DNA of 64,000 nt from a bacterium (GCA_030428205.1 JAUIBK010000007.1:46749-110748), one strand, 5' to 3'; shown: positions 14,398 through 19,992, counted from the first letter of the stretch. Notes: generated by a model from the sequence alone, not told the origin. Numbers and translations are program-made.

Positions 14398-15549
14398 CTA
14401 CGAAAGAACCTGACCTAAAGCAACAACCACACTATCAAGCTCCCCCTTTGAAATAGTAAGTGGTGGAAGAAAGCGAAGCACCGTAGGTCCTGCTGGAAGC
14501 GCGAGGATCCCCTTATCCATCAGCGCCTTAAGGTAGGGCGTAGCTTTCTCTTTGAGCTCAACAGCAACCATGAGCCCAAGACCACGAACTTCTCGGATTT
14601 TTGGAGAATCAATTTCTCTGAGCCTATCCATAAAGTAGGTGCCATTCTGAGCTGCTTGCACTGGGAGGTCGTTGCTTTGCAAGTATGAGATAGAGGCCAG
14701 TGCTGCAGCACATGCAAGTGGATTACCACCAAAAGTTGTGCCGTGTTTTCCAAAGGACACAGAAATCCTATCCGAACAGAGCACAGCTCCCATCGGCACA
14801 CCACCAGCAATAGCTTTGGCTAAGGTGATCATATCAGGACGAAGATCGTAGTGTTCACAAGCAAACATTTTACCAGTTCGACCAAAACCAGTTTGTACTT
14901 CATCCACGATAAGAAGTGCTCCTCGCTCCTGACAAAGCGCTTGTACTTCTTTCAGGTAATCGCTATCTGCGAGATTAACTCCACCCTCACCTTGAATAAC
15001 TTCTAAGATAACAGCTGCAGTCTCATTGCTTACCTTCTCAGCTAGTTTCTCAATCTTATTGAGAGGCGCATGAGAAAACCCTGGTACAAGTGGAGCAAAG
15101 TCTTTCTTGTACTTGGGATTAAATGTGGCACTGAGCGCTCCAAAGGTTCTGCCGTGAAAACCACGCATAAGAGAGACAATCTCGGTGCGCCCCGTTGAGA
15201 GCCTGGCAAATTTAAGTGCTGCTTCAACACTCTCTGTGCCAGAATTACAGAGAAAAGCTTTGGTAAGACTATCCGGAGATATCTCTATCAGCTTTGCTAA
15301 AAGCTCTGCACGCTTGTCGTTATAAAACGCTCCAGCACAGGTAAGAAGTGTTTGTGCTTGCTCAGTAATGGCTTTGACGATTTGTTCATTGCAGTGGCCA
15401 ACATTGACGACACCATTTCCTGTGGCACAATCAATATATTCGTTTCCTTGATCATCCCACACCTTTGAACCTTTGCCTCGCACAAGACAAACGTCACGCA
15501 TAGCGTACAGTGGAAGCTCGTAAGCTGATTGAAGTTCCTTAGAGTCCAT
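14398..15549 (-). CDS. lysJ: [LysW]-aminoadipate semialdehyde/glutamate semialdehyde transaminase (class III PLP aminotransferase)
   Basis: NSGTESVEAALK, GFHGRTFGALSAT, DEVQTGFGRTG, LAKAIAGG, HGTTFGGNPL; last gene of the lysW operon. Confidence 0.85.
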   Translation of the reverse strand: MDSKELQSAYELPLYAMRDVCLVRGKGSKVWDDQGNEYIDCATGNGVVNVGHCNEQIVKAITEQAQTLLTCAGAFYNDKRAELLAKLIEISPDSLTKAFLCNSGTESVEAALKFARLSTGRTEIVSLMRGFHGRTFGALSATFNPKYKKDFAPLVPGFSHAPLNKIEKLAEKVSNETAAVILEVIQGEGGVNLADSDYLKEVQALCQERGALLIVDEVQTGFGRTGKMFACEHYDLRPDMITLAKAIAGGVPMGAVLCSDRISVSFGKHGTTFGGNPLACAAALASISYLQSNDLPVQAAQNGTYFMDRLREIDSPKIREVRGLGLMVAVELKEKATPYLKALMDKGILALPAGPTVLRFLPPLTISKGELDSVVVALGQVLS

Positions 15550-16340
15550 TAGGCTATCCTTGTTCCTTTTCCTGCAAGCGCATCTTGAAGCGGGTGTTCT
15601 ACACGCCCATCACTAATAAGCACCGTTGCTGCTCCATCTTCAAAGAGTTTTTTAAGAGCAAGCATCTTTCGCTTCATACGGCCTTCAACTTGCTCTTCTC
15701 TTGCGGCAAGCTCTGGTTGAGAGATTTCAGCAACAAGTGATGTTGGATCGTCTTTATCATCAAGAAACCCTGGTGCTTCAATCAGCTGAACAATCTTTTC
15801 AGCGTGAAGCTCACGTTGGAGAACATTTACGATATCATCGTTTTCTGAGTTAATGGCAAAGCCATTTTCATCAATGATTGGCACAGATAATACCGGGGTG
15901 TATCCGTTATCGAGAAGCATCCTCAGAAGCTCTCCATTAGCACTCTTTGGCTTACCTGAAAAGTCACGCACAATACGTACCTTTTCTCCCTCTTTAACAC
16001 GAATACCTTTATTCCGTACCCCTTGAACAACCCGCCCATCAAGGCCAGAGAGCCCTACGGCGTTCATGCCGCACTGCTGACACAACTCAACAACCCGCTT
16101 ATTTCTTAAACCTGCATACGCCATCATCATCACATCAATGGCTTGCTCATCTGAGAAAACACTTGTGTATCCCTTTACCGAAGTGAGAGTCTTTTTAGGC
16201 GCATCAAGTTTTTCAGCAATCTCATCACGGAGAGCATTGGCACCAACAACAAGAATCGCTTGCTCCTCTAACGCAGCGAGATCGCGGATAACGCCCTCAA
16301 TATTTATCGCTGCTCCACCACCAATCTTTACAATAATCAT
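15549..16340 (-). CDS. lysZ: [LysW]-aminoadipate/[LysW]-glutamate kinase
   Basis: MIIVKIGGG, GYTSVFSD, GLSGLDG, GRMKRK; TAATG overlap with lysJ. Confidence 0.88.
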   Translation of the reverse strand: MIIVKIGGGAAINIEGVIRDLAALEEQAILVVGANALRDEIAEKLDAPKKTLTSVKGYTSVFSDEQAIDVMMMAYAGLRNKRVVELCQQCGMNAVGLSGLDGRVVQGVRNKGIRVKEGEKVRIVRDFSGKPKSANGELLRMLLDNGYTPVLSVPIIDENGFAINSENDDIVNVLQRELHAEKIVQLIEAPGFLDDKDDPTSLVAEISQPELAAREEQVEGRMKRKMLALKKLFEDGAATVLISDGRVEHPLQDALAGKGTRIA

Positions 16341-16972
16341 ATGACCTCTACGGTATTATTCGGTATAGACTCCCAATCCTCTTCGCCTGGATATGGATCG
16401 GAGCAGAAGATACGTACTCCTTCAGTCTCTTTCTTCCACATTCCGAAATACTCAGGATCTTCGTTGTAGGTTGTTGCAAGATATTGCTGCGTACCATCAG
16501 AGATGATGATATTCATCGCTCGAACATACCTTGTACGCTTTTCAATCACAGATACTCCGCGCCCTAAGGCCTCACTCATATCGCCCTTATCAAAGCGCTT
16601 AATATAGTTAAAGATCTTCTCAGCTCCAATTCGCCCCTCTTCTTTAATGCGCACGCCACGAAGCTCGCCATTAAAAATAAAAACGTAATTCTCGTCTGAA
16701 AAAGGCATATTGTTTTCAACAACAATTCCCTCATCTTGAAAGGCGCTTCTCGCATGCACGAGAAGCTCTGTTGTTTTGCCAAAACCAGAAAGGTCATCCT
16801 CCCAAATAGGTGAAATATTGTGGTAGTGCTTCCACCCACTCCCCTCTCTCTGTGACAATCCCCAACCGTGCCCCTGGTACTCCTTGCTCGTACGAGAGAG
16901 CTCAGCAAAAGCTTTGAGGTGAACCTCAGATGCGAACGGAGTCGCTGCACGTACGGATAGGATTCGACACAT
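16337..16972 (-). CDS. Class II glutamine amidotransferase-like Ntn hydrolase (EgtC/YafJ/DUG3-like)
   Basis: MCRIL start (Cys2), HGWG, HARSA, ENNMPF, FIFNGEL; ATGA overlap with lysZ and 5 nt from the lysY stop. Confidence 0.8.
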   Translation of the reverse strand: MCRILSVRAATPFASEVHLKAFAELSRTSKEYQGHGWGLSQREGSGWKHYHNISPIWEDDLSGFGKTTELLVHARSAFQDEGIVVENNMPFSDENYVFIFNGELRGVRIKEEGRIGAEKIFNYIKRFDKGDMSEALGRGVSVIEKRTRYVRAMNIIISDGTQQYLATTYNEDPEYFGMWKKETEGVRIFCSDPYPGEEDWESIPNNTVEVI

Positions 16973-16977
16973 AGCAG

Positions 16978-18024
16978 TTATACTGGGTGAAGGCCTGGGA
17001 ATTCTAATGCAGCTGTTTCATCAAAGCCGTACATCAAGTTAAATGCTTGAACAGCTTGACCAGCAGCACCTTTCATCAGGTTATCAATAGCGCTTACAAC
17101 AACAAGACGGTTTGAACAGGGGTCTTTTTGAAAACCGACGTCACAGTAGTTCGTCCCCCAGAGAAGCTTTGGCTCTGGCATGCGGTAAATGCCTTGAGCT
17201 TCTTTCACGATACGGATAAACGGCTCGTCACCATATGCAGAACGGTAGATTTTCCAGATATCCTTCTCTTCGAGCGAATCATTGAGGAAAACATGTGAAG
17301 TGGCAAGCACACCACGGACCATATCAATCGATGTAGCCGAGAAATGAATCTCAGCTGGCTCACCAAAACTTAGTTCTTGAATCATCTCGGCCGTATGTCG
17401 GTGACGTGTGGGCATAAAAGAGCGCACACAACTACTTCTCTCAGGGTGGTGGCTTGCTTCATTAAAGCTATTTCCACCTTCGCTGCTCCCCACTTTGACT
17501 TCAACAACAGTGCGCTCTCGGTCAACCACTCCGGCTTTAAAAAGAGGATAGAGCCCAAGGATTGTAGTGGTTGCATTACACCCTGCACTAGAAATCCATT
17601 TAGCTTCTTTCATCTCTTCGCGGTGAAGCTCAGGAATCCCGTAGACAAACTCAGTCATTTTTTCAGGCGCAGGATGGTCTCCGCCATACCACTCTTTATA
17701 CTGCGCAGGGTCATTAAGGCGAAAATCAGCACTCAGATCGACTATCTTATCTGAGAGGCTTGTGAAACGATCGAGCTGCGTCGATGACTTCCCGTGGGGG
17801 AGACAGAGAAAGAGCGTGTCGCACTCTGTGAGCTCCTCTAGCTTAGAGAACTTAAGCGCTGTGCGCTTTCGTAAGTTTGGATGTGTACGTGAGACTGGTT
17901 TTCCAGCAAAACGCTCGGATGTTACCTGCTTTACTTCAACATCTGGGTGAAGAAGTAATAGTCGAAGGAGCTCACCTCCTGTGTACCCAGAAGCTCCAAC
18001 AATAGAGACCGTCACCTTACTCAT
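16978..18024 (-). CDS. lysY: [LysW]-aminoadipyl/glutamyl-phosphate reductase
   Basis: VSIVGASGYTGGELLRLL, SAGCNATT, VKVGSSEGG, HHPER, DNLMKGAAGQAVQ. Confidence 0.88.
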   Translation of the reverse strand: MSKVTVSIVGASGYTGGELLRLLLLHPDVEVKQVTSERFAGKPVSRTHPNLRKRTALKFSKLEELTECDTLFLCLPHGKSSTQLDRFTSLSDKIVDLSADFRLNDPAQYKEWYGGDHPAPEKMTEFVYGIPELHREEMKEAKWISSAGCNATTTILGLYPLFKAGVVDRERTVVEVKVGSSEGGNSFNEASHHPERSSCVRSFMPTRHRHTAEMIQELSFGEPAEIHFSATSIDMVRGVLATSHVFLNDSLEEKDIWKIYRSAYGDEPFIRIVKEAQGIYRMPEPKLLWGTNYCDVGFQKDPCSNRLVVVSAIDNLMKGAAGQAVQAFNLMYGFDETAALEFPGLHPV

Positions 18025-19713: not shown

Positions 19714-19735
19714 ATTCACTACCGTCTTATAGTAC

Positions 19736-19760
19736 AAAAAACGCGCCTCGAGGGGCGCGT
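19736..19760 (-). terminator. Intrinsic terminator between lysW and lysX
   Basis: Minus strand acgcgcc-cctcga-ggcgcgt followed by a T run (plus strand aaaaa at 19736-19740). Confidence 0.6.
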
Positions 19761-19827
19761 AGTTCCAGAAATGTGTATGTCGTTTCCAGACTCTACGAGA
19801 CCCCGGGAACGATTCACGCCTTAGGCG

Positions 19828-19992
19828 TTACTCACCCCAGTCCTCTTCAGCTTGAGGTGCTTCTTTCAGTTTGGGAGGATCAACGGAGATAACCTCTAGT
19901 TCTGTGCCACAATCGTCACAGACCAAAAGCTCACCTTCAACCACATCGTCAGTTACTGTTACTTCAGCACCACAAACAGGACATTCTGGCAT
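19828..19992 (-). CDS. lysW: Amino-group carrier protein LysW (54 aa)
   Basis: Manual translation MPECPVCGAEVTVTDDVVEGELLVCDDCGTELEVISVDPPKLKEAPQAEEDWGE*: two CxxC pairs and the EDWGE C-terminus; absent from the ORF track. Confidence 0.95.
   Translation of the reverse strand: MPECPVCGAEVTVTDDVVEGELLVCDDCGTELEVISVDPPKLKEAPQAEEDWGE

What the first reader, a model, noticed from the sequence alone, without database searches (positions are those of the whole stretch)
14398..19992. LysW amino-group-carrier operon, with an unannotated lysW, in an unexpected bacterial background
Seen: a 54-aa LysW ending in EDWGE heads a near-complete carrier pathway (only lysK is missing). No homocitrate synthase, homoaconitase, homoisocitrate dehydrogenase, argF, argG or argH gene is in the cluster. 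Known: the pathway is best characterised in Deinococcus-Thermus and archaea. Inference: it was horizontally acquired or retained in a poorly studied lineage. The end product (Lys, Orn, both, or a non-proteinogenic amino acid) cannot be determined from this window.
Basis: partly seen in the sequence, partly recalled or inferred. Interest (0 to 1): 0.55.

Follow-up and report, generated by a model that had tools for sequence, protein, structure and literature searches.

The report
LysW operon with Ntn hydrolase
This is a real seven-gene operon that builds lysine and/or ornithine on the small carrier protein LysW. It is a widespread but apparently undescribed version in which a cysteine hydrolase takes the place of the usual release enzyme LysK, and it reached this Bdellovibrio-like bacterium by horizontal transfer.

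Summary
On the minus strand, 19992-14398, lie lysW (54 aa, ends EDWGE), lysX, a second lysX (lysX2), lysY, a 211-aa Met-Cys Ntn hydrolase, lysZ and lysJ, tightly coupled.

There is no lysK in the operon or in the genome (92% complete). The order lysW-lysX-lysY-ntn-lysZ-lysJ recurs at 55-73% identity in over 60 fetched loci from about ten bacterial phyla and DPANN archaea. None of ten such genomes has LysK. The Ntn model matches EgtC, a gamma-glutamyl amide hydrolase. It most likely releases the product from LysW.

The host is an uncultured Bdellovibrionota/Oligoflexia-like bacterium. Its relatives (3 of 6 same-family genomes, and others of the class) carry the classical lysWXYZJK operon. The window's operon instead belongs to the cross-phylum Ntn-type clade, sister to a Planctomycetota MAG, so it was transferred.

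The product is unresolved. LysX has the aminoadipate-type motif FITNS, and lineage-specific LysX2 has FIVHS. The genome lacks homocitrate synthase, homoaconitase, homoisocitrate dehydrogenase, LysA, DapA, ArgJ and OTC, but has ArgG and ArgH.

The layout is common and was mentioned once in passing (Caldithrix). This scan has noted the Ntn-type operon before on other DNA (39 notes, at least 26 genomes).

The parts
19828..19992 (-). lysW: amino-group carrier protein, 54 aa, zinc ribbon (C4, C7, C25, C28), acidic tail ending EDWGE
   Evidence: TIGR01206 72 bits (cut-off 53.2) and PF21344 74.6 bits. Sequence.
19741..19760 (-). G+C-rich hairpin followed by a T run, between lysW and lysX. It looks like a terminator and may be a partial terminator that keeps carrier expression above enzyme expression (inference).
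   Evidence: 7 pairs, 6 of them G-C, tail TTTTTGT. Sequence.
18868..19713 (-). lysX: LysW-aminoadipate ligase (ATP-grasp), 281 aa from ATG 19713. It is the orthologue of the single LysX in related operons. Specificity motif F-I-T-NS.
   Evidence: TIGR02144 340 bits. 291 bits to T. thermophilus LysX, PDB 3vpd/1uc8, with the motif read from that alignment. 64 of 67 related LysX share the motif.
18026..18868 (-). lysX2: second ATP-grasp ligase, 280 aa, whose start overlaps the lysX stop. It is 56% identical to LysX and has an altered substrate pocket (motif F-I-V-HS; TNTAR changed to ADVSK).
   Evidence: TIGR02144 279 bits, just over the cut-off of 275.6. Alignment to 3vpd. Identity. Only one closer relative (88%) among 5.8 billion proteins, with motif F-I-I-YS.
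16978..18024 (-). lysY: LysW-aminoadipyl/glutamyl-phosphate reductase (ArgC family), 348 aa. It is the only ArgC-type gene in the genome.
   Evidence: TIGR01850 399 bits. The genome search found no other.
16337..16972 (-). Cys-Ntn (class-II glutamine-amidotransferase-fold) hydrolase, 211 aa, starting Met-Cys. It is the proposed LysW release enzyme in place of LysK.
   Evidence: Invariant C2, R75, N101-G102. AF2 model with pLDDT 86. Best fold match EgtC, PDB 4zfj/4zfl, E 8e-12, TM 0.76. Sits between lysY and lysZ wherever both flanks were recovered.
15549..16340 (-). lysZ: LysW-aminoadipate/glutamate kinase, 263 aa. Its start overlaps the ntn stop (ATGA).
   Evidence: NF010659 237.5 bits, cut-off 223.
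14398..15549 (-). lysJ: LysW-semialdehyde aminotransferase (class III), 383 aa. Its start overlaps the lysZ stop.
   Evidence: TIGR00707 457 bits (cut-off 410). NF042418 LysJ 474 bits, below its cut-off of 700.

Best explanation
**What it is.** The seven genes form one translationally coupled operon for the LysW (amino-group carrier protein) pathway, of a distinct 'Ntn type'.

**Proposed steps**
1. LysX, and probably LysX2 with another substrate, uses ATP to join the alpha-amino group of 2-aminoadipate or glutamate to the gamma-carboxyl of LysW's C-terminal Glu54.
2. LysZ phosphorylates the distal carboxyl, LysY reduces it to the semialdehyde, and LysJ transaminates it. This gives LysW-gamma-lysine or LysW-gamma-ornithine.
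3. The embedded Cys-Ntn hydrolase, not the M20 metallopeptidase LysK, then cuts the gamma-glutamyl amide. This frees the amino acid and regenerates LysW.

**Origin.** This lineage of an uncultured Bdellovibrionota/Oligoflexia-like bacterium acquired the operon horizontally. Its relatives use the classical lysWXYZJK operon.

**Shown.** Gene identities, operon anatomy, the distribution, LysK/Ntn exclusivity in every locus and genome checked, the EgtC-like fold, and the tree.

**Inferred.** The hydrolase's substrate, the substrates of LysX and LysX2, and the end product. My split for the end product is:

| End product | Probability |
|---|---|
| Both lysine and ornithine | 0.4 |
| Ornithine only | 0.25 |
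| Lysine only | 0.2 |
| Another amino acid | 0.15 |
For: **Family assignments.**. Starts and stops overlap or abut.

**Same gene order elsewhere.** The order recurs in the 80 species loci fetched out of 486+ species that carry the hydrolase, wherever the contig reaches far enough (51 complete loci). Each protein is 55-73% identical to the window's.

**LysK absent.** It is absent from the operon and from the genome. Of six M20/M42-type peptidase matches, the five scanned include no LysK. tblastn with relatives' LysK finds nothing. LysK is over cut-off in 0 of 10 other genomes that carry the operon, including a complete 1.16-Mb archaeal chromosome.

**Classical operons have LysK and no Ntn.** Five relatives of the host carry LysW operons that end in a true LysK (355-380 bits on NF003367) and hold no Ntn gene.

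**Hydrolase fold.** The nucleophile Cys2, the oxyanion Asn-Gly and an Arg are invariant. The best structural match is EgtC, which cuts a gamma-glutamyl amide.

**Gln-ended carriers.** 34 of 61 LysW in Ntn-type loci end in Gln (EDWGQ). That residue would need a glutaminase-like step before loading. All 4 classical ones end in Glu.

**Ornithine role elsewhere.** In the sister Planctomycetota genome and in archaeon AR15, the operon's LysY and LysZ are the only ArgC-type and ArgB-type genes although OTC is present. The operon there must also make ornithine.

**Transfer.**
Against: - No biochemistry exists for any Ntn-type operon.
- Sequence similarity of the hydrolase to EgtC is weak (52 bits against a cut-off of 219).
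- In this genome both possible uses look incomplete. There is no homocitrate synthase or LeuA, no LeuC-type aconitase and no LeuB-type dehydrogenase to make aminoadipate. There is also no ornithine carbamoyltransferase, although ArgG and ArgH exist.
- The genome is a 92.3%-complete, 81-contig assembly, so one missing contig could hold either set.
- A diverged ArgE/DapE-like M20 protein on contig C73 (128 bits on TIGR01910, below its cut-off) could in principle act as a release enzyme.
Confidence: 0.8

Rival explanations
1. Sulfolobus-like dual system. LysX loads aminoadipate for lysine and LysX2 has become a bacterial ArgX-like ligase that loads glutamate for ornithine. The two share one carrier, LysZ/Y/J and the Ntn hydrolase. 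The LysW route would then replace both the DAP/AAA lysine route and the acetyl-ornithine route that this lineage lost. This is a specific form of the best explanation rather than an opposite.
For: - Two coupled ligase genes are present.
- LysX keeps the aminoadipate-type motif FITNS. LysX2 has the ArgX-like hydrophobic residue at position 203 and a bulkier residue at 258.
- The genome has no other ArgC, no ArgJ and no ArgB/ArgD paralogue, but keeps ArgG and ArgH.
- Most relatives searched (15 of 20 have ArgC above cut-off, 9 with an OTC-family gene beside it) have classical arg genes that G000 lacks.
- LysX2 is confined to this lineage.
Against: - The LysX2 motif FIVHS is not the ArgX motif IYVGF. 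The two LysX2 orthologues differ at the key positions (V/I at 203, H/Y at 258).
- No OTC and no aminoadipate-forming enzymes were found in the assembly.
- A single LysX seems to serve both roles in the sister operon, so a second ligase is not required for ornithine.
Confidence: 0.35
2. The operon makes a non-proteinogenic amino acid for a secondary metabolite, as the LysW-like carriers of Streptomyces do. LysX2 would load an unusual substrate, and the nearby HalD-family oxygenase would modify the product.
For: - The LysX2 pocket is unlike any characterised type.
- A HalD-family Fe/2OG enzyme lies 3.7 kb away at 9922-10734.
- The precursor and follow-on enzymes of primary metabolism are missing from the genome.
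Against: - None of the flanking genes tested, the HalD-like gene included, recurs beside the operon in the 90 loci compared, apart from a weak DUF6036 match in L002.
- The HalD gene is on the other strand, beyond four unrelated genes.
- The other five enzymes are 55-73% identical to operons that carry homocitrate synthase and are annotated as primary lysine synthesis.
- There are no transketolase, NRPS or other tailoring genes in the flanks.
Confidence: 0.1
3. The operon is an orphan remnant with no function in this genome, acquired by transfer and stranded without precursor supply.
For: No aminoadipate-forming enzymes and no OTC were found. HTH_17 and DUF6036 genes, as often found in mobile regions, lie upstream.
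Against: - All seven reading frames are intact and tightly coupled.
- G+C matches the genome.
- A related MAG whose RpoB is at least 90% identical keeps the hydrolase at 83% identity, and an unassigned 1.3-kb contig holds a LysX2 at 88%. Together these argue for retention under selection.
Confidence: 0.07

Closest known systems
LysW/AmCP-mediated lysine synthesis of Thermus thermophilus (LysW, LysX, LysZ, LysY, LysJ, LysK)
   Same: A carrier with a zinc ribbon and EDWGE tail. LysX gives 291 bits to TtLysX and has the identical five-residue aminoadipate motif F-I-T-NS. The same kinase, reductase and aminotransferase families are present.
   Different: No LysK; a Cys-Ntn hydrolase sits between lysY and lysZ. 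There are two ligases. All genes are in one operon. No homocitrate synthase, homoaconitase or homoisocitrate dehydrogenase was found in this genome.
Bifunctional Lys/Arg carrier systems of Sulfolobus (LysX plus ArgX) and Thermococcus kodakarensis (a single LysX/ArgX)
   Same: One carrier and one set of LysZ/Y/J enzymes can serve both lysine and ornithine. Two paralogous ligases, as in Sulfolobus. In the sister operon's genome and in AR15, the operon's LysY and LysZ are the only ArgC-type and ArgB-type genes.
   Different: The LysX2 motif (FIVHS) matches neither ArgX (IYVGF) nor the bifunctional type (YITNA). The release enzyme differs. The host is bacterial.
EgtC, the gamma-glutamyl-hercynylcysteine sulfoxide hydrolase of ergothioneine synthesis (PDB 4zfj/4zfk/4zfl)
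   Same: Best structural match of the embedded hydrolase (TM 0.76). A stand-alone class-II amidotransferase fold of similar size, with an N-terminal Cys nucleophile. Its chemistry is hydrolysis of a gamma-glutamyl amide.
   Different: Only 17-18% identity, and 52 bits against a cut-off of 219. The proposed substrate is a protein's C-terminal gamma-glutamyl amide. The genomic context is entirely different.
The lysWXZYJ + hcs locus of Caldithrix abyssi (Cabys_3146-3153; Kublanov et al. 2017, PMC5317091)
   Same: MAGs of the same phylum (Calditrichota) carry this operon type in my loci. The paper reads the locus as Thermus-type lysine synthesis.
   Different: The paper names neither the hydrolase nor the lack of LysK. 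The window has no hcs and has an extra lysX.

Membership tests
LysW/AmCP carrier pathway (Thermus/Sulfolobus type) | Small zinc-ribbon carrier with an acidic C-terminal tail ending in Glu (EDWGE) | tested here: met
   TIGR01206 72 bits (cut-off 53.2), four Cys, tail EAPQAEEDWGE.
LysW/AmCP carrier pathway (Thermus/Sulfolobus type) | RimK-type ATP-grasp ligase LysX with the LysX pre-ATP-grasp domain | tested here: met
   TIGR02144 340 bits, PF22626, and 291 bits to TtLysX.
LysW/AmCP carrier pathway (Thermus/Sulfolobus type) | LysZ kinase, LysY reductase and LysJ aminotransferase encoded together with the carrier | tested here: met
   NF010659 237.5 (cut-off 223), TIGR01850 399, TIGR00707 457. 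The Thermus-specific LysJ model is below its cut-off (474 against 700).
LysW/AmCP carrier pathway (Thermus/Sulfolobus type) | M20 metallopeptidase LysK releases the product | tested here: not met
   no LysK in the operon or the genome. Best LysK-model score 56 bits against a cut-off of 363.
LysW/AmCP carrier pathway (Thermus/Sulfolobus type) | Aminoadipate supply by homocitrate synthase, homoaconitase and homoisocitrate dehydrogenase | tested here: not met
   only HMG-CoA lyase, pyruvate carboxylase, one 934-aa aconitase and one 415-aa Iso_dh protein. The genome is 92.3% complete, so absence is not proven.
Ntn-type LysW operon (undescribed class seen here and earlier in this scan) | Order lysW-(hcs)-lysX-lysY-ntn-lysZ-lysJ with a roughly 211-aa Met-Cys hydrolase and no lysK | tested here: met
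   The window falls inside the Ntn-type clade (100% SH-aLRT).
Class-II (Ntn) glutamine amidotransferase fold / EgtC-like amidohydrolases | N-terminal Cys nucleophile, Asn-Gly oxyanion hole, four-layer alpha-beta-beta-alpha fold | tested here: met
   C2 and N101-G102 invariant; EgtC E 8e-12; then 1te5, 3mdn and the GlmS/PurF glutaminase domains.
EgtC family proper (TIGR03442) | Score over the family's cut-off, and ergothioneine gene context | tested here: not met
   52 bits against a cut-off of 218.65. The context is a LysW operon.
ArgX (glutamate-specific LysW ligase of Sulfolobales) | Specificity motif I-Y-V-GF at TtLysX positions 182, 192, 203, 258/259 (PMC12998189) | tested here: not met
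   LysX2 has F-I-V-HS (its sister has F-I-I-YS). Only position 203 is ArgX-like.
Streptomyces-type AmCP secondary-metabolite clusters | Carrier genes embedded among tailoring, NRPS or transketolase genes | tested here: not met
   the flanks hold unrelated genes that do not recur beside the operon elsewhere.

The most novel reading that the evidence does not exclude
This lineage independently evolved a bacterial counterpart of the archaeal LysX/ArgX split. It took up a foreign Ntn-type lysine operon, duplicated the ligase, and retuned the copy's pocket (LysX2, FIVHS/FIIYS). One carrier and one Cys-Ntn release enzyme now make both lysine and ornithine in an organism that lost the DAP route, its family's classical lysWXYZJK operon and the acetyl-ornithine route. 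The same hydrolase also matures Gln-ended carriers in sister operons.
Probability: 0.3. Interest if true: 0.7.

Novelty: new variant of a known kind. Interest (0 to 1): 0.55.

Why it matters
**The missing last step.** LysK is treated as the obligatory last step of carrier-mediated lysine and ornithine synthesis. Pathway-calling tools therefore report a gap in the many uncultured bacteria and DPANN archaea that carry this operon: 486+ species genomes, and over 3000 protein clusters in metagenomes. A Cys-Ntn hydrolase as the release enzyme would close that gap. It would also be a second, unrelated chemical solution for recycling the carrier.

**This genome in particular.** It adds a case of a native classical operon replaced by a foreign variant. 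It also adds a young ligase duplicate that could show how substrate choice (aminoadipate or glutamate) evolves. That is the question addressed experimentally for Thermus LysX in PMC12998189.

Tried and rejected
- **Riboswitch or leader.** An Rfam scan of the whole window found only 5S and the end of 23S rRNA, and no lysine riboswitch upstream of lysW. The window has no tRNA gene to mark an integration site.
- **Eighth gene.** The 233-aa ORF just downstream (13578-14279) is a secreted Cys-rich protein with no family. It is not found beside any related operon, so it is not part of the system. The HalD-like gene, the BNR protein and DUF7523 are likewise not conserved neighbours.
- **argG/argH neighbourhood.** The genes upstream are glycosyltransferases, not arg genes.
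- **The single OTC-family hit.** It is aspartate carbamoyltransferase.
- **The HMGL-like protein on C46.** It is HMG-CoA lyase, not a short homocitrate synthase.
- **Literature.** The GapMind 2026 preprint and the lysine-riboswitch survey mention 'LysW' only in other senses. I found no paper on an Ntn hydrolase in LysW operons.
- I therefore could not test 'unannotated lysW', nor fetch DNA of the sister MAG for dN/dS.
- **Host name.** The host's exact GTDB name could not be obtained. Only NCBI labels of its nearest RpoB relatives were available.

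
Full report
**1. What is in the sequence**

The minus strand between 19992 and 14398 carries seven closely packed reading frames.

| Gene | Coordinates | Size | Family evidence (unless stated) |
|---|---|---|---|
| lysW | 19992-19828 | 54 aa | TIGR01206 72 bits (cut-off 53); PF21344; four-Cys zinc ribbon; tail EAPQAEEDWGE |
| lysX | 19713-18868 | 281 aa | TIGR02144 340 bits |
| lysX2 | 18868-18026 | 280 aa | TIGR02144 279 bits (cut-off 275.6) |
| lysY | 18024-16978 | 348 aa | TIGR01850 399 bits |
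| ntn | 16972-16337 | 211 aa | Starts Met-Cys; only named match is weak, to EgtC (52 bits against 219) |
| lysZ | 16340-15549 | 263 aa | NF010659 237.5 bits (cut-off 223) |
| lysJ | 15549-14398 | 383 aa | TIGR00707 457 bits |

- The mechanical ORFs of lysX and lysX2 start a few codons too early. Alignment to solved LysX structures and to each other puts the starts at MKVGFLHS (ATG 19713) and MARIGFLHS (ATG 18868).
- With these starts, lysX/lysX2, ntn/lysZ and lysZ/lysJ overlap by 1-4 bases, and the other junctions are 1-5 bases.
- The one real gap lies between lysW and lysX. It holds a G+C-rich hairpin with a T tail.
- The flanks hold no lysine or arginine genes.

**2. The operon type is widespread and lacks LysK everywhere I looked**

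The 211-aa protein has more than 3000 clusters of relatives at 60-83% identity in metagenomes. In the 80 loci fetched, the order lysW-lysX-lysY-ntn-lysZ-lysJ recurs with each protein 55-73% identical to the window's.

The carriers include:
- Gammaproteobacteria (Granulosicoccaceae, Woeseiaceae, SUP05 Thioglobus);
- Planctomycetota, Gemmatimonadota and KSB1;
- Ignavibacteriota (Melioribacter, and the cultured Rosettibacter primus);
- Calditrichota, Rhodothermaceae and Vicinamibacteria;
- DPANN archaea.

In the Ignavibacteriota, Bacteroidota and Calditrichota loci, a homocitrate-synthase-like gene sits between lysW and lysX. It lies close by in the two DPANN archaea. The Caldithrix abyssi genome paper mentions such a locus (LysWXZYJ plus Hcs) as Thermus-type lysine synthesis, without naming the hydrolase or the missing LysK (PMC5317091).

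In ten genomes that carry the operon, the LysK family is over its cut-off in none. The two DPANN genomes have no M20 match at all.

**3. The hydrolase as release enzyme**

- Cys2, Arg75 and Asn101-Gly102 are invariant in the family. These are the nucleophile, a carboxylate-binding arginine and the oxyanion hole of class-II amidotransferases. That reading rests on established knowledge of PurF and GlmS.
- The AlphaFold model (pLDDT 86, pTM 0.86) matches EgtC best (E 8e-12, TM 0.76). Stand-alone class-II amidotransferases and the GlmS/PurF glutaminase domains follow. All of these cut the gamma-amide of a glutamyl group. That is the bond joining lysine or ornithine to LysW's C-terminal Glu.
- Following a lead from earlier notes of this scan, I checked the carrier tails. 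34 of 61 LysW in Ntn-type loci end in EDWGQ and 27 in EDWGE. All four classical operons examined end in EDWGE. A Gln-ended carrier needs a glutaminase-like step before it can be loaded, which fits a hydrolase acting on that very residue.
- The host's own relatives supply the natural control. Their LysW operons end in a bona fide LysK (NF003367 355-380 bits) and have no Ntn gene.
- The two release enzymes are therefore mutually exclusive in everything I examined. This part is inference from context and fold, and no assay exists.

**4. Host and origin**

- RpoB falls in one 90% cluster with a 'Bdellovibrionales bacterium' MAG. Its best named relatives, at 82-86% identity, are labelled Bdellovibrionales, Oligoflexia, Bdellovibrionota or Deltaproteobacteria, with single Dadabacteria and SAR324 labels.
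- The genome is 3.76 Mb in 81 contigs, 46.7% G+C, 92.3% complete and 1.6% contaminated.
- In its GTDB phylum (124 species genomes held), the hydrolase occurs in only three: G000 and two genomes of another family at 46-49% identity. It occurs in none of the six genomes of G000's own family. Both of the other genomes have the whole operon.
- LysX above cut-off occurs in 9 of the 124, including three of the six family members. Those are classical lysWXYZJK operons, only 36-60% identical to the window's.
- In a concatenated LysX-LysY-LysZ-LysJ tree, the 34 Ntn-type operons, the window included, are separated from the classical operons of the host's kin by a branch with 100% SH-aLRT support.
- Within the Ntn-type clade the window is sister to a Planctomycetota MAG. 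Support is 96% with five proteins and 89% with four.
- The operon is thus foreign to its family, which otherwise uses the classical version. G+C does not stand out, so the transfer is not recent. A sister MAG keeps the hydrolase at 83% identity.

**5. What does it make here?**

The ligases:
- The five-residue specificity motif defined for LysX-family ligases is LysX-type F-I-T-NS, ArgX-type I-Y-V-GF and bifunctional Y-I-T-NA (PMC12998189).
- It reads F-I-T-NS in the window's LysX and in 64 of 67 LysX of related loci. Together with the in-operon homocitrate synthases, this says the operon type is at root a lysine pathway.
- LysX2 reads F-I-V-HS, and TNTAR is changed to ADVSK. Its only close relative in 5.8 billion proteins (88%) reads F-I-I-YS. 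The second ligases of two other loci have still other motifs.
- LysX2 is therefore a young, lineage-specific duplicate with a more hydrophobic, probably smaller pocket. That is the direction which raised glutamate use in engineered Thermus LysX. It is not an ArgX by motif.

The genome around the operon is sparse.

| Not found in the assembly |
|---|
| Homocitrate synthase / LeuA |
| LeuC-type aconitase |
| LeuB/HICDH-type dehydrogenase |
| LysA |
| DapA |
| ArgJ |
| A second ArgC |
| ArgB/ArgD paralogues |
| OTC (the only hit is PyrB) |

Found: DapF, and ArgG and ArgH, which lie adjacent.

Family members do have HCS/LeuA-like and LeuB/HICDH-like genes, partly clustered, and classical argC next to OTC-family genes.

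In the sister operon's genome and in archaeon AR15, the operon's LysY and LysZ are the only ArgC-type and ArgB-type genes, although a true OTC is present and LysA is not. This operon type can therefore serve ornithine as well.

For G000, each route lacks something: aminoadipate supply for lysine, and OTC for arginine. A missing contig could hide either. My split is both products 0.4, ornithine 0.25, lysine 0.2, something else 0.15.

**6. Verdict**

Horizontal origin holds. 'Unexpected background' and 'only lysK missing' do not.
- The refutation criterion is met halfway. The layout is common across phyla and was mentioned once for Caldithrix, but it is rare in the host's own group.
- The interesting core is the undescribed Ntn-for-LysK swap, which this scan has met repeatedly on other DNA. 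In this genome there is also the replacement of a native classical operon and the lineage-specific LysX2.

Noticed in passing
window 19741-19760 (-): A terminator-like hairpin (7 pairs, 6 of them G-C, then TTTTTGT) sits in the only sizeable intergenic gap of the operon, between lysW and lysX. It could act as a partial terminator or mRNA stabiliser that gives more carrier than enzymes. I did not check whether it is conserved in other loci.
   Followed up: no
window 9922-10734 (+): A HalD/BesD-family Fe/2OG amino-acid halogenase or hydroxylase homologue (PF23169, 117 bits) lies 3.7 kb from the LysW operon. It is on the other strand beyond unrelated genes, and is not found beside related operons.
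   Followed up: partly
window 14300-14397 (-): Just after the lysJ stop there is a long imperfect inverted repeat (aaggcgcaaagacgcaaaga ... tctttgcgccttagcgtctttgcgg). It may end the operon's transcript. It resembles the dispersed hairpin repeats noted elsewhere in this genome.
   Followed up: no
window 20243-20734 (-) and 22251-22799 (-): A DUF6036 nucleotidyltransferase lies directly upstream of lysW, and an HTH_17 (excisionase-like) protein lies further up. A weak DUF6036 homologue (36% over 63 aa) also lies directly upstream of lysW in the sister locus L002. This may be a trace of the transferred segment.
   Followed up: partly
L023:3299-4483 and L076:6167-7066: Two other Ntn-type loci also carry a second LysX-like ligase. 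Their specificity motifs (IAASC, FVIKF) differ from each other and from the window's LysX2. This suggests repeated, independent ligase duplications in this operon type.
   Followed up: partly
G000 whole genome: The genome looks strongly auxotrophic. No LeuA, LeuB, LeuC, DapA or LysA was found, nor ArgJ or OTC. DapF, ArgG and ArgH are kept. Family members keep more of these genes.
   Followed up: partly
G000:C73:7175-8284 (L084:1294-2403): A diverged ArgE/DapE-family M20 protein of 369 aa scores below every curated cut-off (best TIGR01910, 128 bits against 217.6). Its role is unknown. It is the only remote candidate for a metal-dependent release enzyme.
   Followed up: no
window 62965-64000 (-): A 5S rRNA gene and the 3' end of a 23S rRNA gene lie at the end of the window. 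The rest of the rRNA operon may lie on the remaining 4.5 kb of the contig and could give a firmer taxonomy.
   Followed up: no
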